From Rhizaria sp. SCN 62-66 (taxonomy: Eukaryota), in assembly GCA_001724265.1 (NCBI GenBank), contig MEDY01000134.1, positions 1 through 64,000 of the forward strand: a DNA stretch of 64,000 nt, read 5' to 3'. This document shows positions 1 through 43,583 of this stretch, piece by piece. Made by a program: the position numbers and the translations under genes. The notes beneath the pieces are model-generated. The model saw only the letters and a list, made by a program, of their open reading frames with translations, did no database searches and was not told where the DNA came from. Within the stretch, counting starts at the first letter, position 1, and every line of letters begins with the position of its first letter.

Positions 1-2274
1 TGTACACGGTGACCTCAAAGCGCTCAACTTTGTCTGGGGCGTGGAGGCTCAGGATACTCGTCCGAGCGTCAAGGTGTCCGACTTTGGCAACTCGAAGCTT
101 CACGAGACTGCGAGGAGTCTGTCAGTGACCCCTGGTACGTTTAATATTGACGAATTAATTTCGATTTTCTGATAACGAAATAACATATCCAATACTAAGT
201 TTGTGTTATTTAGCTTTCTCTCACCTTTTGATTGATTATCTTCTCGCTTCACATGCGCGCGATAGTCTCGTCAAATACGGGCACGGTGGGATGGATGGCA
301 CCAGAGCTGTTGAACTTGACCTCCCGGCAGACGGCGAAATCAGACGTCTATGCGCTGGGCATGACTCTGTACGAGATTGCGTTTGGTGTTATGCCTTTTG
401 CGAACCTGCCTTCCAATTTGGTCCGGTCCTCCGTGCTCGGAGGTGCACGGCCCACAGTTGACATTAGTGACTTTGACGACGTGAAGAATGACGCGTTCCT
501 GTCAGGCACGGAGCCAATGCCGGAGCTGATTGAGATGATTCGTAACTGCTGGGACGCTGACAGCAACAAACGGCCTCACATCGATGCTGTCCGCGAGAAG
601 ATCGACGGACTTCCCAGCGATGAACGTGCCGTTCGCGACTTCATGCTAAAGATTCTTGGCCGCAGTCCACCTCCGCAGCAGCTCTCTGTTAGTGGCGCAG
701 ACTTCGCAACGCGTGCCAGCCCGGCCATTATTCGGCAAACGTGTTCGGATGACTCTGGAGCCGTAAGCCTTGAGAACGTGACTCCTGTGACCGAGCCTAC
801 CCCCGCGAAGTCAGGCAGCATTCGCGCTACCGCGCCGGGCTCCAAAGCCTCGGGCTCAGCACTGGGCCAGTCAGAGCAATATACTGCTGCCGACGACGAA
901 GAGGAAGGAGGGACTTTAGCTGTCAAGTCAGATTTTGTCACCTCTACAGCAAGCCCAAGCCAGAGGCCCTTTGCCGTGAAGCCAGCGCAGAACATGCATC
1001 TGCTGCCGGTGCCTGTCTCGCAGCAAGCGCGCGGCAACGACTTAACGCAGGAGGGTGTGTACCGGTTGCAGCAAGTGACGAAAGCCCACTCTTACGCGGA
1101 CTCCAGTGATGTCCAGTTTGACGTCATCTACGCGTCGCCGTCGCCGACCGGCATCGTGGGCAGCTCTTCGACGTTGAATGCGCCAAGTGTGCCGCAGCGG
1201 CAGAGCTCGGGGCCGATCTCGCTCGATGCACTGACTGTGGCCGCTAATCGGGGTGACACCGATGCGATTCGTCAGCTTGTGCACTATTACACGCAGCCCG
1301 AGTCGGGCCGCTATAGCGCGTTTGACGCCAAGAAGTGGATGAAGAAGTTGGTCGACGTTGACGGAAGTTTCAACTACGAGTGCGCGCTTTGGCTCATGTC
1401 GCACAAGCTTGACTTGGACGATGCACATTACTTCTTACAAACCGCCTTTGCGCTGGGCCACCCGCGTGCAGAGGGCGCGCTGGCGGCGCTCGAAGCTGAC
1501 CGTGCTCTGGCGCGCAAAACAGTGGATTCACTGAGTGACGCTCAAAAGAACGACATTGTTAAACGGTTATAGCGTGGCATTGAGGCCGGTGACACCGCGT
1601 CAATGTTTACTCTTGGCCGCGCAATGCACGACGGGCTTTTCGGCCTCAGTAAGAACAAAGAGGCAGGGAATGCAATGATGCTGCGTGCTGGACATGCCGC
1701 GGAAGGCGAGGACTTCTACGGCCCCGCGGCTGCGTACTACGCGAAGAGGAAGCACTCTGCGCCTCATCTCCGGGCTGCGGCAGAGGCGGGGCAGACCGAA
1801 GCTCAGCTCTCTCTGGGCGAAAACATCGCCGGCAGCGGCGACCACGTCACAGGGCTTAAGTGGGTCCACATCGCCGCCGATGCAGGCGACGTGTGGGCTC
1901 TGATTTGTCTCGCCGAGATAAGCTTCAACGGACTGTACGGACAGCCGCGTAGCACAACCGACTCGTTTGAGTATGCGTTCCGCGCGAGCTCGACGGAACA
2001 CCCCGCCGGGCAGACGGAACTGGCGATGCACTACGTGCTTGGGGCGGGCACCGCGCAAAACCAGAGGCTCGGCGCGGGTATGCTGCAGGATATCGTGAAT
2101 CGGACGGGCAACGACGAGGCCATCTACTGGCTCGCTAAGTGTATGGCTGAAGGATGGGGCGTTACGCGAAATTTGCGAGACGCCAAAGCTTTGCTGCAAA
2201 ACGCAGTACGTTGCGAGAAAGTTATGGATTTGTTTCGTCTCATTGACAGTTACCAAAGCAGGAGTCCCATGTGA
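1..2274 (+). CDS. TKL-type Ser/Thr kinase plus Sel1-like repeats, 5'-partial; exons <1-134 and 266-2274; one in-frame TAG at 1570-1572 (nonsense allele/pseudogene or readthrough)
   Basis: Frame 2 from base 2 reads VHGDLKALN...VKVSDFGNSKL. A phase-1 intron 135-265 (GTACGT...ATAG) joins it to VSSNTGTVGWMAPE...KSDVYALG. After a linker come Sel1-like repeats, which continue in the same frame past the TAG to TGA at 2272-2274. Clear paralogue of 13290-16663. Confidence 0.85.
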
Positions 2275-2626
2275 TGACGCTTCGAACCGTCACGCTGTAA
2301 TAGTCACAAGGGCAACTATATCTTTGTTTTGTTTTGTTACTCGCTAAACTTAACACCTGATACGTACTACCTCATGTCAAATCTTGTACATCGATCTTCT
2401 TTGTATTTGATCTTGAATCAATTGCATTACACTCTTTGAAAATACTCACAACGATCAAGAAAACAAAACGAAACCATAATCATAAACACACAAAACCACA
2501 CTAAAAACATGATTTTATCAACAATACGCATGGGCACACGTTATGTGCCTGCGCGAATCTTTCAATCACAACAACAACAACAACAACAACACGTCTCGTC
2601 GTCACATTTGCACATGATGCGTGCAT

Positions 2627-4270
2627 TTACTGTTGTCCGCCGTTCTTGATGACCTGCGCAAGCTCCTTCGCGGCCGCCGCGACCTTGGCATCCGCGCTGG
2701 CGCTCCAGTCGGCCGCCATATCGCCGACGCCCATGGCCTGCACGAACTCGTGCAGCGACACGGCGCCGTCGCTGTCGCCGCCGCCGCCGCTGCCGCCGTC
2801 GCCGCCCGCGCCGACAAGGAGCGTGCCGACGACGACGATGAGGCGGTAGAGGATCGCCGCGCTGCCCGCGCTGGTGACGTCGGCGCCAACGCCCGCGGCG
2901 AGCGCCTCAACGACGGCGTTGAGCAAGTAAACCTGCGCGTCGGTGACGCTCAGCGCGGGGTCGCGGCGCGGCGAGCGGGCTGCCAAGTCGAGCGTGATGG
3001 TGAGGTTGATCAGCACGGCCAGCGTCGACACTACGACGGGCTCGTCCGCGGCAAACCGCGCGAGGTTGTCTGCGCACAGGTCGACGATGTCGTCGTACGC
3101 ACGCGCCGCGAGAGCGCGCATCTTCATGCGGTCGAACGCGTTAGCGACTGCGCGGACCGATAGCACTGCCACCGTCTGCGTCGCGGCGCCCTTGCTCGCG
3201 CGGCACAGAGCGGCGAGCGCGTTGGGCGCACCCGCGCCGGGGCCCGCGCGCGGGATGGCCTTGCCGGCGCACAACCCGTCGCAGCCGGCGCCCGTGGCGG
3301 CGAGCCCGCGGACGAGGTGCAGTGCGGAGCCGAGCTGGTCGGCGGGCCAGGCGAGGAGCTGACCCACGGCGGCGAACATCTCGTCGTCAACCAGCAGCGG
3401 CTGCGAGCCAGAAGACGCGGCGGCAAGCGCGGCGCACAGCGCAAGCAGCGGCGCCTTGAGTGCGGCGGCGGACGCGAAGCCGGGGCTGTACAGCGCCTCG
3501 GCTACGGCGGACGCGTCGAGAGTGGCGGCGATCTTCTCCGCGACTTTGTCGTACATGACGGCCTTGTAGAACACCATCTCGCGCTCGACAAGCGGAAAGT
3601 GCACAAAGCGGCGCGCGTTGCGGCGGGTCTCCTCGGCCTCCTCGGCCAGCGCGTAGATGAGTGAGCGCATACGGTTAAGATCGACGCCGCGGACGGTCTC
3701 GCGGCACTCGCCGTCGGGCGCCGCGTAGAACTTGAACGTCGGGTACGCGGTAATGTCGGCGTGGCGCGCGGTCGAGAGCAGGCGCTCGCAGTTGACCTTG
3801 ATGAACACGGCGCGACCGGCGAGGGAAGCGGCGAGCTCGGCGAAGCGCGGGGCAACCATCTTGCAGGGGCCGCACCAAGTGGCGAAGTAGTCAACGGCGA
3901 CGGGGAATCCTTCCTTAAGCGCGCGCGCGAGCAAGGCGTCAAACGCGGCGTCGTCGGCGGGCTCATGCACAGTGCCAGTCGCGGCGCCTTTGGCGGCGGC
4001 GGTCGGGGCAGCAGCGGCAGCGGGGGCGGCGCCGGAGCCCATGCCACCACCCATACCGCCCATACCGCCGCCGCCGCCGCCGCCGCCGAGGGACTGCATC
4101 TTGGTGATAATCTTCATAAGCTCGGGGTCGCGCATGGCCTCCATAGCCTGGGACGGATCCGACATGAGGGATTGGAACTTGGCGAGGATGTCGGGGCGCT
4201 GCAGGAGCTCTGCGATCTCGGGGTCGCTCATCAGGCGCTCCGCCATCTGCATCATCGCGTTGTTATCCAT
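2627..4270 (-). CDS. STI1/DP-like domain + thioredoxin (WCGPC) + PUL-like domain protein
   Basis: The N-terminus has Met-rich DP repeats (LMSDPEIAELLQRPDILAKFQSLMSDP...MRDPELMKII), then a Gly/Ala linker and VDYFATWCGPCKMVAP. The C-terminal helical region starts HFPLVEREMVFYKAVMYDKVAEKI, resembling the PUL domain of PLAA/Ufd3. ATG at 4270, TAA stop. Confidence 0.8.
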   Translation of the reverse strand: MDNNAMMQMAERLMSDPEIAELLQRPDILAKFQSLMSDPSQAMEAMRDPELMKIITKMQSLGGGGGGGGMGGMGGGMGSGAAPAAAAAPTAAAKGAATGTVHEPADDAAFDALLARALKEGFPVAVDYFATWCGPCKMVAPRFAELAASLAGRAVFIKVNCERLLSTARHADITAYPTFKFYAAPDGECRETVRGVDLNRMRSLIYALAEEAEETRRNARRFVHFPLVEREMVFYKAVMYDKVAEKIAATLDASAVAEALYSPGFASAAALKAPLLALCAALAAASSGSQPLLVDDEMFAAVGQLLAWPADQLGSALHLVRGLAATGAGCDGLCAGKAIPRAGPGAGAPNALAALCRASKGAATQTVAVLSVRAVANAFDRMKMRALAARAYDDIVDLCADNLARFAADEPVVVSTLAVLINLTITLDLAARSPRRDPALSVTDAQVYLLNAVVEALAAGVGADVTSAGSAAILYRLIVVVGTLLVGAGGDGGSGGGGDSDGAVSLHEFVQAMGVGDMAADWSASADAKVAAAAKELAQVIKNGGQQ

Positions 4271-4739
4271 GATAACAAAGGGTCTACACAAGGATTATGA
4301 GAGGTGGAGCAAAGTATGTAACGATTCATAAAGTGTTTTTTTCGTACAAAGCTAGAAAGAAGAAAAAATGAAGGTTTCAAAGCACCACAAGGAATATCAC
4401 GAACTCCAGTGCTGTCAGCCGCTCAACGTCTCGAATGCCGATTGTATCAAGCTGGATGAAAGGGAAGATCACAGTTTCTCAGGGCGTAAAAAGCACAACA
4501 TAAAGAAAACATAGTAAATCGTAGCATACACAAACAAGACTCCATTCACACGCTCGCAATGCAACTATCGTATCGCTTTTTGGTTGGCTGACAAGGACGA
4601 TGTCAAAGCTGTAGCAGCAATAACTTTTGTGGCTAAAACGACATGTTCGGCTATATCAACATAAAACAAAGCAGAAGAGAAGCAGCCCAAGTAAATAAAA
4701 TTAGAGCGGTTGTATTTCTTGTTTATACCATGATATTAA

Positions 4740-7700
4740 TCAATAATGACACTGGAAGACGAACTGCAGACTGTCCGCATAGCTCTGCACAGCCTGCGGC
4801 GACAGATACGCCGCACTCTGCGCCAGCTCCGTCGCGAACGCCGCGATCAGCCCCTGCGCCTCACCGCGCACGCGGCGCCGCAGCGCGTCCTCTGAGAGCG
4901 GGGCCTCGGCGCCCGCGCGCGCGGCGACCTCGTGCAGCACCATCGGCGGCTGCGGAAACGCCATTGCGAGCTGGTCCGCCTTGGCTTCAAGTGCGGCCAC
5001 TCCCTGCAAAACGGCTGACAGCAGCTGGCCCTGCTTGCGCAGAATCGCGCGCGCCGCCGCGTGCAGCTGCACGGCTAGCGCGGCACTCGCGCCGGCCGCC
5101 GCAGCGCTGCTTCCGCTGCTCTCGGTGGCCGAAGCGCGCGCTGCGTCCGCGACCTTGGCCGCAGCAGTAGCGATATCTGTCAGTCCGAGAGCGAGAACGG
5201 CCCGCAAAGTCGCCCAGTAAGCGTCGTCAGCCGCGCCCGCGGCAAAGGCGCCCATGGCGGGCGCGGGGCCTATGAGCCAGCCTAGCGCGGACTCGATCGC
5301 GACGGCACCCATGGCCACGAGCGCCGGGACAACCACCTCCACGTGCTGCCGCGACGCGCGCCAGAACAGACTCACCTGGTCCAACAACACCCAGTGCGCG
5401 GCGCATGCCTGCAGCGCTGCGGAACCGTCGCGCGCAGTCACCACGCGCGGCGAATTGACGGCCCCCGCCGCAGCGGCCCCCACCGGGGCGGGGAGCGGGG
5501 CGAGACACGCGGCGAGCGCGGGGCCGAAGCGCCGCAGCATTTCGCGCATATGCGTGTGCGTGGGGGAGCCGCGGCGCAGCAGAGCCGTTGCCACGCCGGT
5601 CAGAGCGGGGTTCACGGCGTCCGGGCCGCAGGAAGGCGCGAACGGCGGCACTGCGGCGGCGGACGCAAACGCAGAGTCAACATCAACATCCGCACCCGTC
5701 GCAGCCACGCTCGAGCTCGCGTCGGACATCGCCGCAGCGGTGATGTTGGCTGCGGTGGCGGCAAGATCGGCCGCGAAGCGCATCGAGGGCCAGATGCCGA
5801 GAAATACGCACTCATTCAGCAGCGCCTGCGAGCGCGCGCGCGCGTTGGTGACCGCGGCCGCGTCGCTGACGTAGTCATGCGCGGCCGCCGAGCCGGGCAG
5901 CGCGCGCGCCGCGAACCCGCGCGCAAGGTGCTCGATGTCGGCAGCCGTGCCGCTCTCGCGGATCGTCGCATCAACAGTCACGGCAAGCGCGGCGGAGGCC
6001 TCGAGCATCGACGCGGCGGGCGGCGGCAGGGCGGGGTTGGCGCCCGCGGCGCTGGCGATGATGAGCTGGCCCTGCGAGAGGTAGTCGAACGGCAGCGGTT
6101 GCGCCGGGAACAGCGGGTGGAACGGCGGCGGCACGTGCTGCACCATGTTCTCGAAGAACGTAAGGCAGACGGAGCGCTCGATGACGCCGCGCACAAACAC
6201 GGCGTGGGGCCCCAGCGCGGGCTCCAGCAGCGCGGCCTCCCACCGCTCCCAGGGCCAGAGGAAGCTCGCGTTGGTGAAGTGGAACGCGTGAAACGCCGCC
6301 AAGCGCGCCGCCGCGGCGGGGACGAGGCGGCCGACACGGTCGAACAGCGCTAGCAGACGCGGTCCGAGCTGGCGGGGCACGGCAACGTCCTGGAGCTGTA
6401 AGTGGACGAGGAGGCGCATTGCGGCGGCGGGAGCCGGGCGGGCGCCGGCGCTGGGGGCGAGGAGCGCGGCGACAGCGGCGTCGACGACGGACGGGAGGCC
6501 CGACAGTGAAGCGGCGGGGGTCAGCGATGCCCCCCACTCAGCACTACTGTAGAACTTCACTGCAGCAGACGCAGAATCGCCGCCATTGCTCTCAGCGCCA
6601 GTGTTGTTGGCGTCGGGGCCCATAGTAGGGAGCGGGGGAAGCGTGAGCAGCGCGTGCGCGAGCTCGTCACGGAGACGGCCGTACGTCACGATACAGTCAG
6701 CGGCGGCAGTCTGCAGCACAAGAGCGTCGATACTCTCCGCAACAGCAGCAGCAGCAGTGCCGTTGCCGTTGATGCCGGGGTGCAGAGACGGCAGCGGCGC
6801 AGCGCGTGCGGGCGCCGGCACGCCCACCAACGCGACGCGAGTCGACTCGGTCACCACTGCATTCACAGGGTTAGATGTGGCGGTTGCATGAGTCGCAGAG
6901 CCGAGACGGCTGCGGGCGGGCGCGAGCGTTTGTAGCCTCGCGGCGGCCTCGGCGAGCGGCGCGGCGACCGCGGCGGCGAGCTCGGGCGCAGCGTGCCTCA
7001 GCTGCTGCTCGGTGTCCGCAGAGGCCGTGATGAGCTCAGCGCAGCGGGCGCGCGACGGTGCGAGCATTGAGTACACCGACACAAGCGTATGGTACCGCCC
7101 CTGCCCCTCCTCCTCAGACTGAGAGAGCGCGGCGGCGGAGGGCGCGCGGCCGAGGAACGCGGTCAACAGTGCCGTGGCCAGTGGGGGAAGCAACGAGAGA
7201 CTCGCCTCAGCCTCCGCCCCAGTAGTGGCACTCATATCGCCGGTAGCAGCAGCAGGAACATTGGGGTTGCTGTTGACGGTCTCCCAGACGGGGAACAGCG
7301 GGTGCGACCCGTTGCCGGCGCAGTGCACGGCGCGGGCGACGGCCCAGGCTTCGAGCCGCGGCAGCACGGCGGCAGCGAGCGCGGCGACGGCGGGCGCGGC
7401 GGCGGCGTCGGTGGCGGCCAACAGCTGCAGCAGAGGGTGGGAGTGCACGAGGGCGTCAGTGACGGCCTCTGCGATGGCGTCCGTCGCGGCCACGCTCAGC
7501 GCGGAGACGGACGCGGGCAGCGCCATCACAGTCGCGGCCACAGGGTTAGAGTCAGAGTCAGACGCTGCATCGGCAAGTGCGGGCACGCAGTCGGGCAGAG
7601 CGGCAATGGCGCCACTGGTGCCGTCGGTGCTTGCCTGTAACGTGGCCAGCAGCGCACCGAGTCCTCCAGCCGCGCTCGCACTCTCTGACTTGGCGGTAAC

Positions 7701-8600
7701 TTCGGTCTGCGTCGCTTCGGTCTGCGCGGAGTCTGTGTTCGTTTTGTTGTTGATATCGACAGCGCCGCAGTCAAGCAGCGCAATAGCAAGCGCGTGGAAC
7801 GCGCCCACGGTCATCACGCCCATCCCTGCGAGCGCGGCGGCGAAGCGGGTCAGCAGACGCAGCTGCAGCGCTGCCGCGGCGAGCGGCGACTCGGGTGCGG
7901 AGTCACGCGTCGGTGCGGCGCCGAAACCGCTGGCCAACAGGGCGGACAGCGCGGCCGCGGCCGCGGGGGCGGCGGGGGCCGCAGCGGGCAGCGCGAGCCC
8001 GGCGGCGGCGGCGCCGGTGCCGGGGGCGGGCACGGCGGCAGTGCATAGCGCGCGCGCGGCGGCGGCGAGGCGCTTGCTGAGCTCGAACGCAACGTATGCG
8101 CCGAAGCGCGCGCTGCCGCGGTTGTTGAGCTCGGCCGCAAGCGCGGCAAGCGGGAGTGTCTTGGTGGGCAGCGCGGCGGCGGCGCGCAGCAGGGCGTCGC
8201 AGTGCGCGGGGTAGTCGCGCTCGAGGGTGAGCGACAGCTGCTGCGCCGCACGAGTCAGCTGCTCGTCGAGGGAGATCGCGGACTCGGACGCTACAGCCGT
8301 GTCCAGGGGGACAAACTTCGGCAGCGCGGCAGCGTCGGGCGCGTCGGGCGCTGCGGCGTCTGCGGCGGCCTTTGCGCTGATGTAGACGTCTCCGAGGCGG
8401 ACGATGGTGCCGACTGCGCCGCCGACGGAGACAATGTCACTCTTCTTCTCAGCGGGCGCGGCGGGACGCGCGCTGTCGCGGGGCGCGTAGTGGCCGCCGC
8501 GACCACCGCCGCCGCCGCCGCCACGGCCGCCGCCACCGCGGGAGAAGCCGCCGCCACCACCACCACCACCACCACCGCGGTCGAACCTTTGATGCTGCAT
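4740..8600 (-). CDS. NCBP1: Nuclear cap-binding protein subunit 1 (CBP80), with N-terminal RGG-rich tail and Ala-rich insertions
   Basis: Motifs LPTKTLPLAALAAELN, FHAFHFTNASFLWPWERWE, RRGSPTHTHMREMLRRF and VSLFWRASRQHVEVVVPALV match the MIF4G-type segments of CBP80. Likely ATG at 8600, TGA stop. Confidence 0.82.
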   Translation of the reverse strand: MQHQRFDRGGGGGGGGGGFSRGGGGRGGGGGGGRGGHYAPRDSARPAAPAEKKSDIVSVGGAVGTIVRLGDVYISAKAAADAAAPDAPDAAALPKFVPLDTAVASESAISLDEQLTRAAQQLSLTLERDYPAHCDALLRAAAALPTKTLPLAALAAELNNRGSARFGAYVAFELSKRLAAAARALCTAAVPAPGTGAAAAGLALPAAAPAAPAAAAALSALLASGFGAAPTRDSAPESPLAAAALQLRLLTRFAAALAGMGVMTVGAFHALAIALLDCGAVDINNKTNTDSAQTEATQTEVTAKSESASAAGGLGALLATLQASTDGTSGAIAALPDCVPALADAASDSDSNPVAATVMALPASVSALSVAATDAIAEAVTDALVHSHPLLQLLAATDAAAAPAVAALAAAVLPRLEAWAVARAVHCAGNGSHPLFPVWETVNSNPNVPAAATGDMSATTGAEAEASLSLLPPLATALLTAFLGRAPSAAALSQSEEEGQGRYHTLVSVYSMLAPSRARCAELITASADTEQQLRHAAPELAAAVAAPLAEAAARLQTLAPARSRLGSATHATATSNPVNAVVTESTRVALVGVPAPARAAPLPSLHPGINGNGTAAAAVAESIDALVLQTAAADCIVTYGRLRDELAHALLTLPPLPTMGPDANNTGAESNGGDSASAAVKFYSSAEWGASLTPAASLSGLPSVVDAAVAALLAPSAGARPAPAAAMRLLVHLQLQDVAVPRQLGPRLLALFDRVGRLVPAAAARLAAFHAFHFTNASFLWPWERWEAALLEPALGPHAVFVRGVIERSVCLTFFENMVQHVPPPFHPLFPAQPLPFDYLSQGQLIIASAAGANPALPPPAASMLEASAALAVTVDATIRESGTAADIEHLARGFAARALPGSAAAHDYVSDAAAVTNARARSQALLNECVFLGIWPSMRFAADLAATAANITAAAMSDASSSVAATGADVDVDSAFASAAAVPPFAPSCGPDAVNPALTGVATALLRRGSPTHTHMREMLRRFGPALAACLAPLPAPVGAAAAGAVNSPRVVTARDGSAALQACAAHWVLLDQVSLFWRASRQHVEVVVPALVAMGAVAIESALGWLIGPAPAMGAFAAGAADDAYWATLRAVLALGLTDIATAAAKVADAARASATESSGSSAAAAGASAALAVQLHAAARAILRKQGQLLSAVLQGVAALEAKADQLAMAFPQPPMVLHEVAARAGAEAPLSEDALRRRVRGEAQGLIAAFATELAQSAAYLSPQAVQSYADSLQFVFQCHY

Positions 8601-9316
8601 GAGGTCTGGATTTGCGCAAGATGAGAGAGCGATCAAAGGAAATAGTAAGTTAATTTGGACATGATCTGACGTGTTTTACGGGTTCATTCAGTTGCAGTGT
8701 GACACAATTCGTGTGGGTTGAGATCCGAAGAAAACAGTTTGAACTCGGAGCTGACGCGGCGCGTTAGTGACGGAGCGATTGGATGAAGCGATATCGGAGC
8801 TGTTCGTAAGAATAATGGCATTCCCAAAATGCATTATTAATAGAATATAGATACGCGCTAGATAGGTATATTATATCAAATTGCAGCGCGATCTGGCGAT
8901 CATTCTTTGGCACTTATATGTGTTGAGCAAACTGCGAGACTGAACACTTCACTCGCCTCTTCCCTGTGGCATAGCACCCTTCGTCCCCGCTGTCGACAGC
9001 AACGGCCACTAGCTGCGGCACGAATGGCGTCGCCTGATACACTGTGTTTGACTCACGGGTTTGGTGTTGTATTCCTAGCTAGCGGCTGCTGTATTGGCTG
9101 TGACGAGCAGCTCGCGTCCCTTTGACTCGAAACACCGGACCACTCGAACATTAATTCTCTTTGATTTCCCACGACAGTGTCCTTCAAAAAACAAAAGCCG
9201 AATGATATCTAGTTTTATTTGTTGTAATAGTTGCGAAAGTGATGCCTTTTCTTCATAACTCACACATAATCTCTGTCATATTCCCAGTTTTCCGTTCCAT
9301 CCCCACAACAAGGTGA

Positions 9317-10030
9317 ATGCTACCTTTGTCGCATTGCGCCCGCGCTGCAGCGCCCCGCGCTCTCTTGCGAGGTTTTGCCAGTGCTACCGCATTTATCGGT
9401 CCGATCCCCGCCCCGCACTGCTCTCTCACCGCGTCCTGCCCATCCCTCAAAGCAGTGAGCGCTTCCTCACGCCCGGCAGTCGCTCACGCTCACGCTGCGC
9501 CAAGTGTGTTTCCTCGCCGTTTCCACTCTATCAGCGTTCTGAAGCACGCCCCCAATGACACCACGCCACGCTCCCATTTTGCATCACTGGCCACAGTTAC
9601 GGTTACTTCACCCGCTTTCGAGCCCACTATCGAGCTCCCCATAGTCAGTCTCACTCCGAACCAGTCAACGTACAGCAGTGAGACGCTTATCGAACCCATC
9701 GCAGCTGCGTCACACGACTCGGCGACTGCCAACGACAACGACGGCGCGTTGACTGTGGAAACGACGACTGAGGAGGATATCCGCGCAGTGTTGCTGGACA
9801 AGGTCGCGCCCGCCATCCGCGACGACGGCGGCGACATCGAGCTCGTCTCGTGGGACGCCGCCGCCGGGGAAGTCTGCGTCCGCTTGCTCGGCGCGTGCCG
9901 CTCTTGCGACCGCTCTACGGTCACCATGCGCATGCTCGTTGAGCGCGCGCTTAAGTTCTATCTGCCCGCAGTGCGGCACGTGCGGCGCGAGGAGCGCACG
10001 GAGCCCTACGAGCGCGAGTTCAACGGGTGA
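9317..10030 (+). CDS. Mitochondrial NifU/NFU-like Fe-S cluster carrier (C-terminal NifU domain only)
   Basis: Arg/Ala/Ser-rich presequence (ARAAAPRALLRGFAS) and a C-terminal VAPAIRDDGGDIELV...VRLLGACRSC motif with CxxC. Confidence 0.85.
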   Translation: MLPLSHCARAAAPRALLRGFASATAFIGPIPAPHCSLTASCPSLKAVSASSRPAVAHAHAAPSVFPRRFHSISVLKHAPNDTTPRSHFASLATVTVTSPAFEPTIELPIVSLTPNQSTYSSETLIEPIAAASHDSATANDNDGALTVETTTEEDIRAVLLDKVAPAIRDDGGDIELVSWDAAAGEVCVRLLGACRSCDRSTVTMRMLVERALKFYLPAVRHVRREERTEPYEREFNG

Positions 10031-10579
10031 GATTGCGCACTCATATCACATATTCGCCGTGTGTAAATGGGGCGATCAAGTTACATAGCACATTATTTAT
10101 AAAGATCGATCAGTGATACAGTATATTTCCACGTTTTGCATTGTTATATGCTTGTCAAGGTTGTCAACGGCAAGTGAAGATGAAGATGCATTTGTGACTG
10201 ACTCTTGCGATCGCACTGTGGTTGGTGAAACAGCATGATATGTGGCTTTGTTTGCCATCCGTATACCAGCCTAAATAAAGGGTCAACAATTATTGACAGC
10301 ACCAAAGGAATCGGACATTTGCATTGATATAGTGTTAGAATGTTGATTTTATTATAATGTTTTGATAAAACAGGACTATTTTGGAAACCTACCACGCGAC
10401 TCGTGACAAGCGAGAACGTTTCTGCTGGGCCACGCGCTGTTCCGCTGCTACGAACCGCATTCTACTTGAACTGTGAGGTAAATACGTAAATATTGGCCAC
10501 ATAAGTTGTTAACTACCCGTAGTTTTGGTCAGTCATCACATGCACTCATTAGACTTGCGCTTTTTTTTTTTTTTAAACG

Positions 10580-11512
10580 TTAACACGCATTAAGAACATG
10601 TGCGGCTGACACAACGCCACCAGCGCCAAACGTAATCTTAAGCCCTAGCTTGCTGAGTTTGCTCTTGGCATCCGCGTGGCCACGACTTGCCGCCGCCCTG
10701 TACAGCTCAACAGCGGTTTCTGTGTCCTTCTTCACACCTTTTCCGCCCTCATAGAGCGTACCCAAGAAGAACATCGCCTCTGTCTCACCCGCCTTCGCCG
10801 CCTTCACGAGCATGTCGACTGCGGTCTTCGAGGAGGAGGGCAACTCCAGTTCACCACCCGATGCAAAGCTGTTAAAGACGTTTTGTTTGCGCTCCGTCTC
10901 TGCGTACAACACAGCGCCACGCACTTCGCCAGCTTCGAAGGCACGCTTGTACCACTGCATAGCAGTCTTGAACTCATTGATCCGGACGTAGAAGTTAGCA
11001 AGGTTGATCATCCCCGCTTCGTCGCCAGCGTTGGCTGACTTCTCGTACCAGTAGATAGCCTGGCTTGGATCGCCCTTGACGCCGTCTGCGTTCGAGTAGC
11101 AATAGCCGACCGGACAGTACGCCTCCGTGCATCCGGCTTGTGCTGCGGTGAGATACCACTTGAAGGCCTCCTCAGCGTTGTGTTCCAGACCTAGATCGCC
11201 ACGGTCATGCAATTGTGCGAGGTACATCATACAGCTTTGGTTGCCTCGGTCCGCAGCTTTGGTGAGCCACTTGACACAATCGGGCCCATAACGCTCCTCG
11301 TCGACATTTTTGGAAAGAAACTGGAAGACTGCCGCTGCACCACGTGCTGCGTCATTGTGACCCGCTTCGTGCGCGCGCGAAAACCATGTCACAGCCTCCA
11401 TTTGCCGCTCAATGGCCTCTGATGACGTGCCTGGAGCCTTTTTGACCAACCGTAGACCCATCAAGAAGAAGGTTTGACCAGGCTGCTCCTCTGCTGATCC
11501 GCACGCTCCCAT
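10580..11512 (-). CDS. Sel1-like repeat protein with predicted N-myristoylation/palmitoylation
   Basis: Repeated SLR motifs (AFKWYLTAAQAG, AIYWYEKSANAG, AMFFLGTLYEGGKGVKKDTETAVELYRAAASRG). N-terminus MGACGS has Gly2, Cys4 and Ser6. Confidence 0.9.
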   Translation of the reverse strand: MGACGSAEEQPGQTFFLMGLRLVKKAPGTSSEAIERQMEAVTWFSRAHEAGHNDAARGAAAVFQFLSKNVDEERYGPDCVKWLTKAADRGNQSCMMYLAQLHDRGDLGLEHNAEEAFKWYLTAAQAGCTEAYCPVGYCYSNADGVKGDPSQAIYWYEKSANAGDEAGMINLANFYVRINEFKTAMQWYKRAFEAGEVRGAVLYAETERKQNVFNSFASGGELELPSSSKTAVDMLVKAAKAGETEAMFFLGTLYEGGKGVKKDTETAVELYRAAASRGHADAKSKLSKLGLKITFGAGGVVSAAHVLNAC

Positions 11513-11697
11513 CTGTTAATTGGACTGAAAGGAGATTGGAGTTGGTCGTAGTGAAATCACAGTACATTGCACAAAACAATAAAAATGATGATAAGTGAGC
11601 TTTTGGTCTTGTGGCGTGCGACAACTCGTCAGCCGTTCCAACCAGAAGCTGGATCGTCGCCATCGCGACCAGTGTAGGTAGGTGGTAAAAAGTGGCT

Positions 11698-11856
11698 TCC
11701 TATTGATCGATACTCACCAGTATATGTTATCTACTCGCTCTCTCGGCTCTCATGTATGCAAACATGTTTTAAGTAACACTCTATGCAATAGAAAGCATTC
11801 CTTTTGATCGATACCCACCAGTATATGATGTCATCTACTCGCCCTCTCGGCTCTCA
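11698..11856. repeat. Imperfect direct duplication of about 55 bp
   Basis: ttgatcgatactcaccagtatatgttatctactcgctctctcggctctca near 11703-11752 recurs as ttgatcgatacccaccagtatatgatgtcatctactcgccctctcggctctca near 11804-11856. Confidence 0.9.
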
Positions 11857-13289
11857 GCCCCTTGCCCCTTACCTCTCTTTGACCATGGCCAGGGTGAGGG
11901 TGAACTTTACCATCTTTGATATTTTGAGAACCCTGGCAGAGGGGGCGGGGCAGGTGGTGTCGACGTGTGCGCAACTTGTACAATGTGAGATTGCTAACAC
12001 CATGTGCGCATAACAATGACGTCGATTACATGTGATGAACGTGTTTATGGATTGAATAGATGTATAGTGAAGATCGCGGGAATTATTATAATATGACAAC
12101 GATGTGGTGTGGAATGTAGTGAACACTCGGCTTTGACAGAACGAAGTGGCAGTGGACAATGGCTGTATTGGAGGGAAATAAAAACTAAGTTTGTACTTTC
12201 CAAGAATTTTGGTTAGAGTGTTACAGGGCAAATCGTGACCCTCCCGTGATTGTGAGAAGAAAAAAAAGGTTGCGTTTATACATCTCATTTAGTTAGTTAA
12301 GCTTTAGTTAAAATTTGTATTGCACTGTGGATCGAAAAAGATCTTAACTTCAATAAACTTACAAAAAAAACGAGTTATGAAGTACAATACTGCATCGTGG
12401 ACCACGCGGTCAGGGCGTGCACCACCGGGCTACTCTCCCGAAACGCCGAGTCACCCATCTTCATAGTCTGTAGAACTATTACTCGGATAGGGATAAGAGA
12501 AAAAATAATGACAAAAAAGAAACTGTGTTGCTTGGCTGGCAAGTGAGAAGAATGCCGTTCGTACGAACAGTGCGTACGAAGGGGGTTATGCTGTGTTTGT
12601 GCTATATGTAAGGTAATCGTGGTTGCTACTCTTTGTGAGGTGTTATTGTTGATTGTTGTGTGTCAGCGCGTGACTGTGCGCGTCCGTGTTGTTGCGCGTC
12701 CGTGGTGTCATTTTGTAGTCTGTTGTTGTTACGCTGTTATTCTGTTGCCAGCGTGTTGGTCAAGAGGTGGCGCGATTGTAGAGTCGATTTTTGTGGTTTG
12801 CTGTTGGTGTGCTCTATCTGATGTTGTAGGTTCTGTCAGCGTGTGACCATGGTGATCGAGCGCGCATGATTTGTTTGTTGTCATTTTGTCGATTGCTGTT
12901 GTTTTGACGCCGTAGTTTTTTTGTTGTTGGTGTCGTTGTTTTCGGTGTGTTGGAGCTCGTGTGAATGAAGTGGCGCGTTTGTGTAATTATTGTCGTTTGT
13001 TGTTGGGGGTTTTCAACGCTGTTGTTGTCAAATATTCGTTCTTATGCTATCGATGTTGAAGTAAGCTTGTGGAATGATTGTGGCAATTTGTGTGTGAGTT
13101 TTTGTAGTTTCACTCGATCCCACCGGCCGTGACATCACGCCAGGAGTTGCTCCTCCCACCGTCGATTCGACAACAGCGGTTGCGACAACGCTGTGAAGAA
13201 GATAGCAACGACGTTTTGTTGCCGTCACGAGTCTTATTTCATTGACGCAGAATAACGATGTTATAATCGTGTCGGTTCAGCCCGAATCA

Positions 13290-16200
13290 TTACCAGAACG
13301 AAGGCTTGAGCAGCTTATCAAGTCGCGCCATGGCTCCGGGATGCTTTTCGCAGATTCGCGAAAGAATCGAGATCGCCTTGTCCTTGTCCTTCTTCACACC
13401 GAGGCCGTCGGCATAGCACAGTCCGGCCTGGTAATGCGCCTCAGTCCAGTCGGGCATCGTCTCAGCAGTGCGCAAAATCAGCTCTGCGGCGCGATTCTTG
13501 TTCGTGGAAACGCCAATGCCGCGCATGTAGCACTGCGCCAGCGCCATTGCGCCTTCAGGTACGCCCTTTTCATTTGCTTGCCATGCCAGCTTAAACGCTC
13601 GCACCTTATCCTTGATGAAGCCGTACTTGCCTTCCATTGTGAGCATCGCGACTTTGGCCATTGCGCGTCCCGAGCCGTTTTCGACGGCGGTGGTCCACCA
13701 CCACATCGCGGCGTTGATACGCTCACGGCTTTCGCACTCATTGCCCAAAAGGAACTGTGCATCCACAATGCCGATTTCTGCTGCAGTCTGCAAATGCTCG
13801 AACGAACTCTTCTTCTCACCATAGTACGCTTGCGCAGGTCCATACGGAATTGCGCAGCTGCCTGCTTTAAGCTTAAGCATACGTCCACCCTGTTCGTCAA
13901 TTTGCAGCCCAAAACGTCCCAGTTCGCGGGCGCAGCCAAGCTCGAACATTGCTGCAGCGTCACCATCATCGGCGCCTTGCTGCAGCCGCTCGGTCAAGTT
14001 ACGAGCGCGCTCGTCGTGTTCCATCATCTCACCACAATTAAGACGCAGCGCGGCTAACGCGGCCAGCGCGCCACTGGCTTTGACGTAACCTGACACTTGC
14101 GCCCGTTGCAGCCACATCTCGGCCTCATAGAACTCAGTACCGCGCGCCATAAGCCACAGGGCGCACTCGTACGCACCTTGTGCGCACATCGCCGCCAGTT
14201 GACGCATCAAGGCAAGCGCGCGAGCCATGTTGTACATGTCCCAGTGGCCAGTGCTGTAGATGCGCACGTGCAGACGCAGTGCATCAAGAGAACCTCCGGC
14301 AGCCGCTTTTGCAAATAAACTCGCAGCGTTTGCACCCGAATGCTTCGAATAAGCACCGCCAAAAAAGCGTTTGCCATCGTTGTAAGCATCAATGGCAACT
14401 GATGTCGGTACCGGGTTATCCAGTGGCAGCTTGGCAATTTTATGGGGCTTCGACGCAGCTGAAGGTCGTGATGGCTTCGGCGGCGGGAGGCGCAGCGGCG
14501 CAGCCCCAGAAAAGGGGTTATCTGTCTCATACGGCGGTGGCGGTGGTGGCGGAGATTCATCTTTGCCATCTTGTTGTGGCGGCAGCGGCAAAGAGTCGCC
14601 CCAGGCGCCGCTCCCAGAGGGTGGTATCTGCGGCAACGGCATAATGGGGCGCGGCGACGCAGGACGGCGATGTGATGGCACAGCAGGCACGCCGAGCAAG
14701 ACTGCCGGTGCAGCAGGCACAGCTGCTGCGGACGCGGATTGGCTGATGATATCGAGCATCAGCGCGCGGACACTACTCTCGTCGCTTGGTAGATCCTCAA
14801 GTCGTTCCATAACTTTGTCAGCTGAAGGGCGAGACTTCCGGTCAGCAGCCCAGCAGTCAGCGATCAGGCTGAGCATTGCCGGCGACGGCTCTGTTCCAGA
14901 CAGCAGCGAGGGGAGCCCGTCGTCGTCGCCGTCGTAGTCGCTTAGGTCCAGCGAAGGGCGCGAGCCACTTGTCACCACTTCTTTGATCTGCGCGTTATTC
15001 ATCCTTTTGAATGGCGCGACACCGAACGCGATTTCGTACAGCGTAATTCCGAGTGCGTACACGTCCGACCGTGAGTTGTGGCCCAAACCGTTCATGAGGA
15101 GCTCTGGAGCAAGCCAAGCTGTTGTGCCTGATACGGAGTCTGTGTGCATAAAGACACAATAAAACGTATACGTACACACGAACAAATAATGAATTAGTTG
15201 AAACTAATGTTAGACGGCAACACGTCAACGCAATTCAAACAATGAACAAAAAAACAAACAACTTAAGCAACGATGTAACGCTACAAAGGAAGTACATGCA
15301 CAACATAATCAAAGGACATTGCAAACGAAAGATACGTACGATTACTTGAGCCAGTGGCAACCGACATGCTTTGCAGTGTTGACTGCAGACGCGAGTTGCC
15401 AAAGTCGGAGACCTTGACTACGGCGGTGGAGCCATGTCCCGCAACGTTCCAGAGAAAATTGAGTGGCTTGATGTCACCGTGTACAATATTTTTCTCTTTG
15501 AGAAACTGCACGGCGCAGGTCACCTGCCGCGCCAGCCACACGCGGCCCGCAGTAGGAACAAAACGATAGCCCTTGTGACCAAGCACGATGTTGAGAGAGC
15601 CAGCGAAGAGCTCCATCACGATGGCCATCCTGCCGCCCCTGCCGCCGCCAAAGGCGGTGTTGCCGGTAAATGGCGTGACAGTGAGACCACGGCAGCGCAC
15701 AACGTACGGAGACCGCAGGTTATAATGCACTTTAAGTTCTTCCATCACCTCATGATCGTGTTGCAGCGCATCAGCATTGGCGTCAAGCACTTTGAGCGCT
15801 ACTGCAACAGGCTCAGCAGACCCATCTGTGGGGGCGTACAGTGCGCGGTACACGCTTGCATAGCCACCGCGTCCGATAAAGCCCGCGCCGTGAAAGTCAT
15901 CGTACTGCAGCGTTGGGATATCTAATGGCTGCGATTTGCGCGTATCAGCCACGGGGATCGCAGCCACGGGTGAACTAACGGTATTGCCCACAAAAGTCAC
16001 AATCGAGAGAACTATTGTGTCTTTGATTTCTGCAAGACGCTTATGTAAAGTTTCAAATGTCTCCTTGATACCACTTGATAACACGATCCGGACAAGTGCA
16101 TTGCGCTTCTCTGTTTTAGTTAAGTAATCCTGACAGTCGCTTAGCACCTCTAGAAGATGTTCCAAAGCCATCCGATTGTTCTCAACAAGAGGCTTTTTCA

Positions 16201-16663
16201 TACCGTTGATGATAGCTACAAAATAGAAATAAACATGTGGCTGAACATGTGAGTTAGCGTTGTGCTCAGTGACTTTTTTATCGTTGAAATGCTAGCATTC
16301 TAGCGCAACACCAACAAGCATAATCAAAAACGACACGCAGAAACTGAATCGGGGGCGCAGGCTGAAATTGTTGAGCAGCTGTACAGAGCAGCTGTACACA
16401 CACTCTGTGTTGCGGGACTCGTCGAGTGTGCGTCGTGACAAACGCAACCGTCACAGCTTGCACACAGCTGGAAAGAAGCGGCCATCATACTGCCAACGGT
16501 GTCGTGTTGTTGTCATTACCTTGTACTCTCTATGAACACACGTACCCATGATGATTTTCACATCATTTCTCAAGGCGATGGCCTCCTCAGAATTACTCCG
16601 CTCGGTTTGCACAGCGTCATAGATGCGTTTTGCAACGTCAAAGGCCTTAATGAGCAAATCCAT
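13290..16663 (-). CDS. MLKL-like N-terminal four-helix domain + TKL kinase + Pro-rich linker + Sel1-like repeats (947 aa); exons 16663-16546, 16215-15340, 15139-13290
   Basis: Two phase-1 GTACGT introns restore one 2844-nt frame. Kinase motifs: GRGGYASV, VALK, HGDIKPLN, SDFG, GTTAWLAPE, SDVYALG. SLR motifs in the C-terminus. The N-terminal about 110 aa follow the MLKL_NTD-type pattern. Confidence 0.9.
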
Positions 16664-41800: not shown

Positions 41801-43583
41801 TATTCGATGTGGTACTTGCTGCCTTCTCAGCAGGAGTTGCAGCAGTGTCCGTGTTGATAGAAAGTGCGATGCCGGGGGTCATCAGAGACGCAACGTCGTT
41901 GTTTCTATCGAATCCAGAGCTGCTGCTGTTGCTGCTGTCCGTCGCTGCAGTGCTGCTGGGGCCGGTGCCGAGCTTCTGGTGCAACGCGAGCGCGGACGCC
42001 AGAACGGACTTCGACGGCGGCTGCTGCTGTGGGGAAGGGGAGGCGGGCGCCAAGGGCGACGGCGAGGCCCAAGACCGCGGCGACTCTGCGCCCTCGATGC
42101 CACCCCTGTTAAAACTCCCCCCCATGCCGCCAAAGCCACCATTGATACCATTACCATTACTGTTGCTGAACGCGGCTGCGGCAGCCCGCGCGCGCGCCAT
42201 CTGCGACAGATTCGCAAACGGATTCGCCGAACCGCCACCTCCGCCGCCGGCGGCGCCGAGGCTGCCGACAGGCGGGGAGCGGGCCTGCAGTCCAAACGGA
42301 GACGATGCCGCGGGGTGACCGTGGGTCAGCCCGGCGCCGGCAAGGGAGGACGCGGCGGAGGAGGAGGACGTGGTGGACAGTGCGGGGGACGGGGACGGCG
42401 CGGGTGACCGGCCGCCCATGTAAGTACCCCCAATGTAAGTACCCGCGCCCGGTAACGCGGGCCCTAAGGCGGCGGCGTTGGGGGGACCGACAGGGATGTT
42501 GCTGCTGTTGAACGGCGCCGGCGCAGTGGTAGTCGCAGTCGCCGTGTTGCCAGCGGAGGTGACGGCGGCGGCGGGGGTGGGTGAGCCGAAGTTGACCGTG
42601 CTCGAGCGGGCCCGTCGGCCGCCCGCGGCCGCAAGGCCTGCGAAGTAGTCGTCGTCCGCAGACGCCGTCGCGAACGTCAGGTCTGCAATCCCCCCGTTGC
42701 CGTTCGCGCCGTCAGCATTGCCGCTGCCGCTGCTGTCGTCCGCTCTCGCGCCGAGACCGGGGCCGGCGAGGAGAGTGGGGGCCCGGTGCTGGCGGTTGAG
42801 CGCCCACCCGCCGGGGCTGTTGGCGATAGACGTGGCGTTTGCATTGGTGTTGAGGCCGTGGTTGTGGAGCGCGGAGGGTAAGGGGGCTGAGGAGGGGCCA
42901 CCAAAACGGCTGCGGGCGCGGGAGCGGTCAAACGGACTCCCGTTACCAGCGTTACCAACACCAAGACTTGCACCAAAGCCAGAGTTGGAGTTTGGAGAGA
43001 AGGCCCCGCTGTTGCTGTTGTTGTTGCTTTGGCCGATGAGCATCGCCGAGGACCGAGCAGGCTCAAGCCCAGCGCCACCGGGGCCTATAGCACCGGGGGC
43101 GGCGTTGTTGCCGGGGCCGAAACCAGGGCTGAGACCGGGACTCAGACCGTGGGCGTTATTGTGGTTGTAGCTGAAGCCGACGCCCCCGGCGCCGCGCAGG
43201 CGCGCGAGGGAGCCCTTGTGCTGCAACAGCGACGGCGGTGACGTCACCGCGGGGGACGCCATCGCACTCGCCCCGCCCGCAGCGACGGGAACGGGGGAGG
43301 AGGCGCTGGGCAGCGCGGGCACGGTGTCGCTGTGGGCGGAGCTGTTTGTGGTGGCCGAGTCGCTGTGGGAGCGGCCACGCTCGCGGTGCGCGAACAACGC
43401 GGCGTCGGCGGGCTGCGGCTGCGGCGGAGTCGCAGCAGCAGCAGCAGTAGCAGCAGCAGTAGTAGCAGCAGTAGCAGCAGCAGCAGAAGTGACAGCAGCA
43501 GTGGCAGAGGGGGAAGCGGCGCTAGCATTTAGGGTGGCGAGGGGCAGCAAGGACGCCACGGAAGCGTCGTGAGGGGCGCTCAT
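35838..43583 (-). CDS. Large IQGAP/DGAP1-type RasGAP-domain protein (2530 aa); exons 43583-40317, 40163-35838
   Basis: GTFLRGNSPLSAMLTAY, FPHGVRWVCRRI, VGSLLILRILNPALVTP and LARLVQRIAN are RasGAP motifs. The C-terminal YTYMVLVNKGVI resembles RasGAP_C. Phase-0 GTACGT intron at 40316-40164. Confidence 0.88.

What the first reader, a model, noticed from the sequence alone, without database searches (positions are those of the whole stretch)
1..16663. Three-gene Sel1 cluster: two paralogous kinase-Sel1 genes plus a Sel1-only protein among housekeeping genes
Seen: 1-2274 (+) and 13290-16663 (-) are diverged paralogues. They share a phase-1 intron in the activation loop and a distinctive insert (DISDFDDVKNDAFLSGTEPMPELI vs DLSDYDGDDDGLPSLLSGTEPSPAML), and also NYECALWLM vs AYECALWLM, but their linkers are unrelated. 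A Sel1-only gene lies 1.8 kb downstream of the second copy on the same strand. All three show visibly weaker G/C-ending codon bias and lack the poly-Ala expansions of neighbouring genes. Inference: a locally expanding, fast-evolving accessory family (birth-and-death, typical of immune receptors), possibly of different origin from the flanking genes.
Basis: partly seen in the sequence, partly recalled or inferred. Interest (0 to 1): 0.7.

Follow-up and report, generated by a model that had tools for sequence, protein, structure and literature searches.

The report
Fast-turnover protist kinase-Sel1 gene family
These genes belong to a small, quickly changing family of signalling kinases in a little-known wastewater protist; they are built like fungal and animal cell-death and immune proteins and may help the cell detect parasites, though one copy here is cut short by a stop codon.

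Summary
Both kinase-Sel1 paralogues and the Sel1-only gene are real, as are the shared phase-1 intron and the low GC3 (0.58-0.66 against 0.71-0.96). The family is not a local expansion. About ten loci were recovered, all from metagenomes, and copy 1's kinase groups with loci elsewhere (support 98), not with copy 2. Architectures vary: MLKL-like bundle-kinase-Sel1 (copy 2), kinase-Sel1 with no bundle (copy 1's sister haplotype), bundle-pseudokinase, and kinase with an orphan domain. All five readable catalytic loops are non-RD. In two haplotype pairs, 14 of 28 kinase C-lobe changes fall in one 20-residue alphaF-alphaG stretch (permutation p=0.0012), the surface where PKR fights viral mimics. 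Nothing supports foreign origin. Best reading: a birth-and-death family of intracellular defence or non-self signalling kinases, convergent with fungal MLKL-like kinase-Sel1 expansions; the function is inferred only. Oddity: 3 of 3 internal stops are TAG, while 0 of 18 inspected gene ends are. Nonsense alleles are likelier than UAG=Gln.

The parts
1..134 (+). g1 exon with kinase catalytic loop (VHGDLK, non-RD) and DFG; the gene begins upstream of the window
   Evidence: translation; Pfam Pkinase piece; N-terminal part seen in haplotype L001
135..265 (+). g1 phase-1 intron in the activation loop, donor GTACGT
   Evidence: predicted from sequence, not seen spliced
266..2274 (+). g1 last exon: kinase C-lobe with family insert (to about 660), low-complexity linker (about 661-1215), Sel1 solenoid (about 1216-2271), TGA
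388..447 (+). alphaF-alphaG segment of the g1 kinase, where haplotype differences cluster (7 of 14 C-lobe changes against L001); helix names are from general kinase knowledge
1570..1572 (+). in-frame TAG in the g1 Sel1 region, aligned to Gln of g2, in the 8th of 21 predicted helices
   Evidence: same letters in run X4
2368..2633 (.). 3' flank of g1 carrying a second haplotype that reaches into the last codons of the neighbouring STI1-thioredoxin-PUL gene
   Evidence: tables 3-4 (X2, X4, X6)
10580..11512 (-). g3, Sel1-only protein of 310 aa; begins MGACGS, which fits an N-myristoylation/palmitoylation motif (motif recalled, not run through a predictor); ATG directly follows a possible splice acceptor
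11680..12290 (.). multi-copy interspersed repeat between g2 and g3, with a roughly 60-nt direct duplication and 16-nt imperfect inverted arms (11773/12224)
   Evidence: summed depth 377 at 11964 in X4 against 5-8 for single-copy contigs; no Rfam match
13290..15139 (-). g2 exon 3: kinase C-lobe with insert, Pro-rich linker, Sel1 solenoid (about 14402-13293), TAA
15140..15339 (-). g2 phase-1 activation-loop intron (alternative donor at 15345)
15340..16215 (-). g2 exon 2: rest of the MLKL-like helical domain and kinase N-lobe to DFG (GRGGYA, VALK, alphaC-Glu, VHGDIK, DFG intact)
16216..16545 (-). g2 intron 1, phase 1; same position in paralogue L003
16546..16663 (-). g2 exon 1: first helices of the MLKL-like domain; gene model 947 aa in total
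   Evidence: 14 identities with L003 over the first 41 columns

Best explanation
g1 and g2 are members of a lineage-restricted family of about 10 non-RD tyrosine-kinase-like kinases in a divergent protist (possibly a rhizarian), evolving by birth and death, and most likely serving intracellular defence or non-self signalling. SHOWN: the architectures, the family size, the broken copies, the haplotype divergence and its clustering. INFERRED mechanism: the C-terminal Sel1 solenoid binds a foreign or damaged protein, or guards a host protein, and releases the kinase. Activated kinases then phosphorylate or oligomerise the members that carry the MLKL-like helical bundle (g2, and the pseudokinase L003), which acts on membranes or signals, as RIPK3 does with MLKL. 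Members without the bundle (the g1 type) act as sensors or decoys. Their alphaF-alphaG docking surface is kept polymorphic by conflict with parasite inhibitors. The window's g1 haplotype is most likely a recent nonsense allele that keeps the kinase and loses 13 of 21 solenoid helices. g3 is probably a lipid-anchored Sel1 adaptor and may or may not belong to this pathway. Confidence in the descriptive part (expanded, decaying, polymorphic family) is about 0.9; in the defence role about 0.5.
For: DOMAINS: Pfam Pkinase and Sel1. MLKL_N matches in two paralogues over the same model region 50-110 (E 1.2e-4 and 6.5e-4, below the cut-off), and 4 of the 7 ESM Atlas rows shown carry MLKL_N in 22-62% of members (scores 0.82-0.84, lead only). 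The Sel1 region folds as a solenoid (pLDDT 83.6) whose top PDB matches are Sel1 proteins (E 5e-10). FAMILY: 4 of 22 metagenome loci are close kin; further members are P0005, P0006/7, P0009, P0132, P0134 and P0139, with sources JGI, ENA, Logan or MetaClust only. All 12 family rows form one side of a branch against 38 others (SH-aLRT 81, not starred). TURNOVER: TAG in g1, L002 and L003; deletion of window 806-2077 in L001; L004 lacks the N-lobe start; P0006-type proteins stop where P0007-type continue. NON-RD: HGD or HSD in 5 of 5 readable loops; non-RD kinases are linked with innate immunity (PMC8463890, passages). POLYMORPHISM: L001 has 60 differences in 805 nt from g1, while the 16 longest listed X2 and X4 pieces have none. 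7 of 14 changes in each of two haplotype pairs lie in residues 42-61, and only 1 of 14 in conserved columns (pooled scan p=0.0012). PKR's helix alphaG holds mimic-escape variants (PMC11556786, passages). PRECEDENT: MLKL homologues with Sel1 in Glomeromycotina (PMC8778642); kinase and Sel1 genes as strain-specific accessory sets (PMC8647823).
Against: No function or expression was shown. dN/dS between g1 and L001 is below or near 1 (kinase 0.63, alphaF-alphaG 0.86, linker 0.99), so positive selection is not demonstrated. dS is also raised in the tract (0.28), which fits balancing selection but equally gene conversion or decay. The alphaF-alphaG loop is variable in kinases anyway; restricted to variable columns each pair alone gives p=0.013, and the second pair (P0112/P0114) is protein-only and could be paralogues or assembly mosaics. 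MLKL_N scores (19.7-22 bits) are under the curated cut-off of 27. HGD loops could simply be inherited from a fungal-type TKL ancestor. g2 and g3 are invariant in the listed pieces of other samples. That all ten loci come from one species is inferred from shared sources and intron features, not shown. Fungal kinase-Sel1 expansions themselves have no tested function (PMC8778642: 'no clear function').
Confidence: 0.55

Rival explanations
1. Neutral or near-neutral turnover: a family of weakly expressed signalling kinases duplicating and decaying without any conflict. The divergent g1 haplotype is an old gene-conversion tract or a dying duplicate.
For: dN/dS 0.58-0.99, never above 1; lesions in at least 4 of 5 DNA-readable family loci (g1, L002, L003, L004; L001 deleted); low GC3 drifting toward non-coding GC of 0.32-0.47; an interspersed repeat beside the genes.
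Against: Changes avoid conserved kinase columns (1 of 14 in each pair) and cluster in the same 20 residues at two separate loci (p=0.0012). Each TAG-bearing gene has a single lesion with long open frames on both sides. The MLKL-like domain is kept in two diverged paralogues (39 identities in 119 columns).
Confidence: 0.27
2. UAG is a rare sense codon (Gln), or a strongly leaky stop, in this organism, so g1, L002 and L003 make full-length proteins and the family is less decayed than it looks.
For: 3 of 3 internal stops in 3,110 family codons are TAG. 0 of 18 inspected gene ends use TAG (13 TAA, 5 TGA; p=0.012 for 20 ends if TAG were 20% of stops). The g1 TAG aligns to Gln. Four protein records end exactly where near-identical ones read Gln (P0006/P0112/P0113/P0115 against P0007/P0114; codon unknown). 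2 of the 3 internal TAGs are followed by C (leaky context recalled). A rhizarian with UAG=Leu is known (PMC5304391).
Against: 0 TAG in 12,146 codons of other window genes, with 407 Gln codons (Fisher p=0.011 against all Gln, 0.14 against CAA), whereas the known rhizarian case has 384 UAG in 71 genes. A standard-code relative of that rhizarian ends all but one sampled gene in UAA, so few TAG ends is not unusual. About 49% of random nonsense mutations in these genes would be TAG, and 11-28% would come from Gln. L003 plausibly ends in TAG. No tRNA gene in the window.
Confidence: 0.1
3. The TAG in g1 is the acceptor of a small in-frame intron (1522-1572, 51 nt), so g1 is intact but one helix shorter.
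For: An in-frame GT exists 51 nt upstream.
Against: The donor GTGGAT differs from the GTACGT used by the five family introns printed cleanly; the stretch aligns colinearly with g2 coding sequence; the modelled family introns are 115-330 nt long.
Confidence: 0.03
4. The genes were acquired horizontally (bacterial or viral Sel1 or kinase), which explains the codon bias.
For: The only 3 non-self hits of the g2 Sel1 region are unnamed or bacterial-like Sel1 proteins at 24-36% identity; top fold matches are bacterial Sel1 proteins.
Against: Such identities are generic for Sel1 repeats. No relative was confirmed among 78 viral, 75 prokaryotic and 2 viral candidate stretches. The genes have conserved spliceosomal introns; RSCU correlates with host genes at rho 0.75, with the same top codon for 11 of 18 amino acids. 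The nearest named kinases are eukaryotic TKLs.
Confidence: 0.05

Closest known systems
MLKL-like kinase-Sel1 expansions of Glomeromycotina (Rhizophagus) and kinase-Sel1 proteins of Mortierellaceae
   Same: MLKL-like plus Sel1 combination (PMC8778642, passages); high-copy, strain-specific kinase and Sel1 genes (PMC8647823, PMC6123716, passages); Actinomortierella and Dissophora kinase-Sel1 proteins are among the named hits at 24-34% identity.
   Different: Protist host; about 10 loci found rather than the very large fungal expansions; the kinases form their own group apart from the fungal Sel1 kinases in a quick tree; family-specific insert and intron. No Rhizophagus sequence was in my tree.
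Animal MLKL / RIPK3 necroptosis pair; fungal HeLo-like and plant RPW8-like four-helix domains
   Same: N-terminal MLKL_N-like helical domain before a TKL fold; paralogue L003 is bundle plus degenerate kinase with no C-terminal domain; RIPK1 and other TKL or tyrosine kinases are among PDB sequence matches. Background from PMC10197012 (passages).
   Different: g2 keeps all catalytic motifs and adds a Sel1 solenoid; the four-helix fold and membrane activity are not shown; no RHIM-type motif was looked for.
PKR under attack by poxvirus K3
   Same: Variation concentrated around helix alphaG and the activation loop (3 of 3 changes in g1 exon a lie after DFG; PMC11556786, passages).
   Different: Unrelated kinase group; here dN/dS is not above 1 and no antagonist is known. 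Analogy only.
Rhizarian exLh (UAG=Leu) and Iotanema spirale (UAG=Gln) nuclear codes
   Same: Internal stops all UAG; gene ends UAA or UGA (PMC5304391, passages).
   Different: There UAG is common in core genes; here it is absent from 12,146 core codons.

Membership tests
Sel1-like repeat proteins | Pfam Sel1 (PF08238) above the curated cut-off | tested here: met
   g1 3' part 33.5, g2 38.5, g3 112.6 bits against 30.7
Sel1-like repeat proteins | alpha-alpha solenoid of helical hairpins | tested here: met
   g2 model pLDDT 83.6, 21 helices; Foldseek top hits are Sel1 proteins, E 5e-10
TKL-group protein kinase, catalytically competent | G-loop, VAxK, alphaC-Glu, HxDxKxxN, DFG, APE | tested here: met
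   present in g2 and in the g1 haplotype L001; degenerate in L003; activity not assayed
non-RD kinases | no Arg before the catalytic Asp | tested here: met
   HGD in g2, L001/g1, L002, L004; HSD in L003
MLKL (necroptosis executioner) | N-terminal four-helix bundle (Pfam MLKL_N) | tested here: inconclusive
   g2 22 bits and L003 19.7 bits against cut-off 27; the fold test lacked exon 1 and gave only a generic helical hairpin
MLKL (necroptosis executioner) | catalytically dead pseudokinase ending the protein | tested here: not met
   g2 has intact motifs and a Sel1 tail; only paralogue L003 fits
MLKL (necroptosis executioner) | oligomerisation and membrane permeabilisation after phosphorylation | not testable with these tools
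   needs experiments
Glomeromycotina / Mortierellaceae kinase-Sel1 families | kinase followed by Sel1 repeats, with or without an MLKL-like N-terminus, in an expanded accessory family | tested here: met
Glomeromycotina / Mortierellaceae kinase-Sel1 families | common descent of the kinase domain | tested here: inconclusive
   the family is separate from 8 Mortierellaceae rows in a 128-column quick tree, but with support 81 and 85 only, and no Glomeromycotina rows
UAG-reassigned nuclear genetic code | in-frame UAG at conserved positions of core genes | tested here: not met
   0 in 12,146 codons of 26 segments; one 64-kb window only
UAG-reassigned nuclear genetic code | UAG absent from true gene ends | tested here: inconclusive
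   0 of 18 window ends; L003's end is TAG or, read through, TAA 9 codons later
UAG-reassigned nuclear genetic code | cognate tRNA(CUA) and altered eRF1 | not testable with these tools
   no whole genome held; no tRNA in the window

The most novel reading that the evidence does not exclude
This protist reads UAG as glutamine at very low frequency (an early-stage, UAG-only reassignment visible mainly in weakly biased accessory genes), so g1, L002 and L003 are intact. The family is then a working, polymorphic RIPK/MLKL-like cell-death system of a free-living protist, with sensor kinases, a bundle-pseudokinase executioner and an alphaG surface in an arms race with intracellular parasites. The defence-system part alone, without the code change, has a probability of about 0.35-0.5.
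Probability: 0.08. Interest if true: 0.85.

Novelty: new variant of a known kind. Interest (0 to 1): 0.47.

Why it matters
MLKL-like kinase-Sel1 expansions are on record in arbuscular mycorrhizal fungi without a tested function. A parallel, apparently independent family in a phagotrophic-habitat protist suggests this architecture is a recurrent eukaryotic solution for intracellular surveillance. The repeated clustering of haplotype differences on the kinase docking surface gives a specific, testable place to look for a parasite antagonist. It would add to the little that is known of immunity in free-living protists, which host intracellular bacteria and giant viruses. The TAG pattern is cheap to settle with the full assembly, and would be a new nuclear code variant if real. 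As it stands the finding is a well-supported comparative observation with an inferred function.

Tried and rejected
WHOLE GENOME: none is held, and the records behind L001-L004 are not searchable, so copy number, synteny and genome-wide stop usage are open.

RNA: polyA run X5 gave pieces on the neighbouring housekeeping genes, but zero depth in the bins over g3 and most of g2, and only one unspliced piece (112-351, second haplotype) on g1. These are shallow contigs, so this is no evidence against expression and no intron was seen spliced.

FOLD TEST OF THE N-TERMINAL DOMAIN: exon 1 could not be included. The exon-2 part gave a three-helix model (pLDDT 70), no Foldseek match at E<=0.001, and only generic helical hits (best Z 9.2); MLKL was not among the rows shown. 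Uninformative.

MLKL-LIKE EXON UPSTREAM OF THE g1 TYPE: six-frame profile search of L001 330-900 gave best E 0.57 and Pfam found none. Rejected for that haplotype; the window's own upstream DNA was not seen.

OTHER NEGATIVES: decayed family remnants between g2 and g3, none by tblastn. g3 as kin of the P0132-type repeat, no BLAST similarity. P0005 and P0132 end inside a Sel1-like repeat; I first counted these as possible TAG stops, then dropped them because both can be intron donors and their DNA is not held. L004's TAG at 1426 was dropped as a likely splice acceptor or break point. C-terminal domain of P0270: no Pfam family and no usable Atlas hit. Viral and prokaryotic relatives, none confirmed. 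Rfam and tRNA scans of the window were empty. Four look-ups of earlier findings returned nothing.

HOST PLACEMENT BY COPG (weak): best hits are unnamed at 49% identity or less. A record labelled Ploeotia vitrea (46%) and Lotharella globosa (45%) rank above plants. In a quick tree of 55 of the 120 listed hits the window is a long, composition-biased branch.

CORRECTION: one search had the first L003 exon out of frame; one search holds the corrected counts.

LITERATURE: no report of this family in protists appeared in the listings of searches (open-access library only; supplements not read).
Full report
OBSERVATION. The window is eukaryotic: GC-rich exons, AT-rich GT-AG introns and housekeeping neighbours (STI1-thioredoxin-PUL, MIF4G-like, NifU). 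g2 (minus strand, 16663-13290) models as three exons and 947 aa: a helical N-terminal domain, a kinase, a Pro-rich linker and Sel1 repeats. g1 (plus strand, to 2274) enters the window at the catalytic loop. The two are 34% identical over the last exon, share the quoted insert and YECALWLM, and have the same phase-1 activation-loop intron with donor GTACGT. Their linkers give no tblastn match. g3 (11512-10580) is a 310-aa Sel1-only gene 1,778 bp downstream of g2, only 25% like g2. GC3 of the three (0.66, 0.58, 0.61) is below all 26 of 26 other segments. The poly-Ala contrast is weak, because 12 of those 26 also have no run above 3.

g1 has an in-frame TAG at 1570, opposite Gln in g2. It falls in the 8th of 21 helices of the predicted solenoid. 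It is not an assembly error: a contig of run X4, from another study, covers 639-2107 with no difference.

THE FAMILY. Scanning metagenome contigs with the g1/g2 alignment gave 22 loci, of which L001-L004 (one common record prefix) are close kin and the other 18 are distant kinases. L001 is 92.5% identical to g1 over 805 nt, then jumps from window 805 to 2078, a frameshifting deletion. It shows the missing N-terminal part: an ATG about 50 codons before the G-loop, and no MLKL-like sequence in the 570 bp up to a divergently oriented ORF. L003 has the MLKL-like domain (39 identities in 119 columns with g2, same intron), a degenerate kinase and no Sel1. L002 and L004 are further paralogues, the latter lacking the start of the N-lobe. 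Protein searches added P0006/P0007, P0009, P0132, P0134 and P0139/P0270, about 10 loci in all, from metagenomic sources only. That they are one species is inferred. In a quick tree of 50 C-lobes the 12 family rows group together (support 81, not conclusive). g1 lies with P0005, P0113/4, P0132 and P0134 (98), apart from g2. So g1 and g2 are not a recent local duplication: the family is dispersed, and its members differ in their N- and C-terminal modules.

POLYMORPHISM. Runs X2, X4 and X6 carry a second haplotype over g1 and its 3' flank. 21 of the 22 listed differences in 46-576 match L001. In X4 this form has about half the summed depth (3.8 of 7.1 in the kinase; 4.1 of 7.5 at 2633, inside the neighbour gene's end), which suggests alleles. 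Contig depth is a poor guide, however, and the full-depth X4 contig over 639-2107 does not fit a simple heterozygous deletion. The 16 longest listed X2 and X4 pieces, including those on g2 and g3, have no differences. Between g1 and L001, 7 of 14 C-lobe changes fall in residues 42-61 (alphaF-alphaG by general kinase knowledge), and 3 of 3 changes in the upstream exon lie in the activation loop. The independent pair P0112/P0114 also has 7 of 14 there. The pooled scan over variable columns gives p=0.0012, and only 1 of 14 changes per pair hits a conserved column. Against over-reading this: dN/dS is 0.63 for the kinase, 0.86 for the tract and 0.99 for the linker, with dS raised in the tract. That is compatible with balancing selection, with conversion or with relaxed constraint.

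DOMAINS. The Sel1 region folds confidently and matches Sel1 solenoids. The N-terminal domain matches Pfam MLKL_N in g2 and L003 below the cut-off, with weak Atlas support; the fold test without exon 1 was uninformative. All five readable catalytic loops are non-RD, a class linked to innate immunity (PMC8463890, passages seen).

ORIGIN. No viral or prokaryotic relative was confirmed. The nearest named kinases are fungal, rotifer and other eukaryotic TKLs at about 25-35%. Codon preferences follow the host's (rho 0.75). The low GC3 is best read as weak translational selection, not transfer. The host is a divergent protist of bioreactor, wastewater and sludge samples (laid for X2, X4, X5, X6). COPG hints at Rhizaria but does not settle it, and one higher hit is labelled as a euglenid.

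THE TAG QUESTION. All 3 internal stops in 3,110 family codons are TAG, and 0 of 18 inspected gene ends are. Four protein records stop where near-identical ones read Gln. But 12,146 other codons with 407 Gln contain no TAG (p=0.011 against all Gln, 0.14 against CAA). Half of random nonsense changes here would be TAG. In the known rhizarian case UAG is frequent in core genes, and a standard-code relative almost never ends genes in UAG (PMC5304391, abstract and passages seen). I put reassignment or strong read-through at about 0.1 and nonsense alleles as the default.

MECHANISM (inferred). Sel1 solenoid as ligand or guard module; non-RD kinase as switch; MLKL-like bundle on g2 and on the pseudokinase L003 as output, by analogy with RIPK3-MLKL and fungal HeLo-like domains (PMC10197012, passages). 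Bundle-less g1-type kinases would be sensors or decoys whose docking surface varies, as PKR's alphaG does against K3 (PMC11556786, passages). g3, starting MGACGS (lipidation motif recalled), would be a membrane-anchored adaptor. None of these steps was observed.

COMPARISON AND NOVELTY. MLKL homologues carrying Sel1 are reported in Glomeromycotina with no clear function (PMC8778642, passages). Kinase and Sel1 genes form strain-specific accessory sets there (PMC8647823 and PMC6123716, passages), and Mortierellaceae kinase-Sel1 proteins appear among my hits. This family works like those by architecture and turnover, but common descent is not shown, and g2 fails the pseudokinase criterion of MLKL proper. 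Searches listed no report of it in protists.

VERDICT. Real; a new variant of a known kind; function plausible but untested; interest 0.47.

Noticed in passing
window 11680-12290: Unannotated multi-copy repeat between g2 and g3 (summed depth up to 377 in X4 against 5-8 for single-copy contigs), with a short direct duplication and imperfect 16-nt inverted arms 420 nt apart; possibly a MITE-like element. No Rfam match.
   Followed up: partly
P0139 / P0270, residues about 255-542 of P0270: One family kinase carries a C-terminal domain of about 290 aa with no Pfam family and no usable Atlas hit; a candidate integrated domain.
   Followed up: partly
L003 690-2329: Paralogue with MLKL-like domain plus degenerate kinase (no G-loop, HSD, DVG) and no Sel1, the closest match to true MLKL architecture; carries an internal TAG.
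   Followed up: partly
P0006/P0112/P0113/P0115 versus P0007/P0114; P0119 versus g1 and L001: Records combine kinase and linker haplotypes in mosaic fashion; either recombination between alleles or assembly chimeras.
   Followed up: partly
clusters of P0009 and P0129 (L002): Both list a longest contig of 106,564 bases and are sisters in the tree, so they may be a linked pair elsewhere in the genome.
   Followed up: no
window 44855-54081 (+): Very large multi-exon, Ala-rich gene (about 2,800 codons in five segments); the three longest segments have no Pfam match at E<=0.1, and the N-terminus looks like a mitochondrial targeting sequence.
   Followed up: partly
window 35838-43589 (-): RasGAP gene of about 2,500 codons, its GAP domain split by an intron and embedded in long Ala/Asn/Ser low-complexity tracts.
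   Followed up: partly
window 2627-4264 (-): STI1/HOP-DP, thioredoxin and PUL domains in one protein, next to g1; the divergent g1 haplotype block ends in its last codons.
   Followed up: partly
window, 18 gene ends listed: No gene ends in TAG (13 TAA, 5 TGA).
   Followed up: yes
L002 2-90: Poly-Asp acidic tract where other family members have the alphaC-beta4 region of the kinase N-lobe.
   Followed up: no
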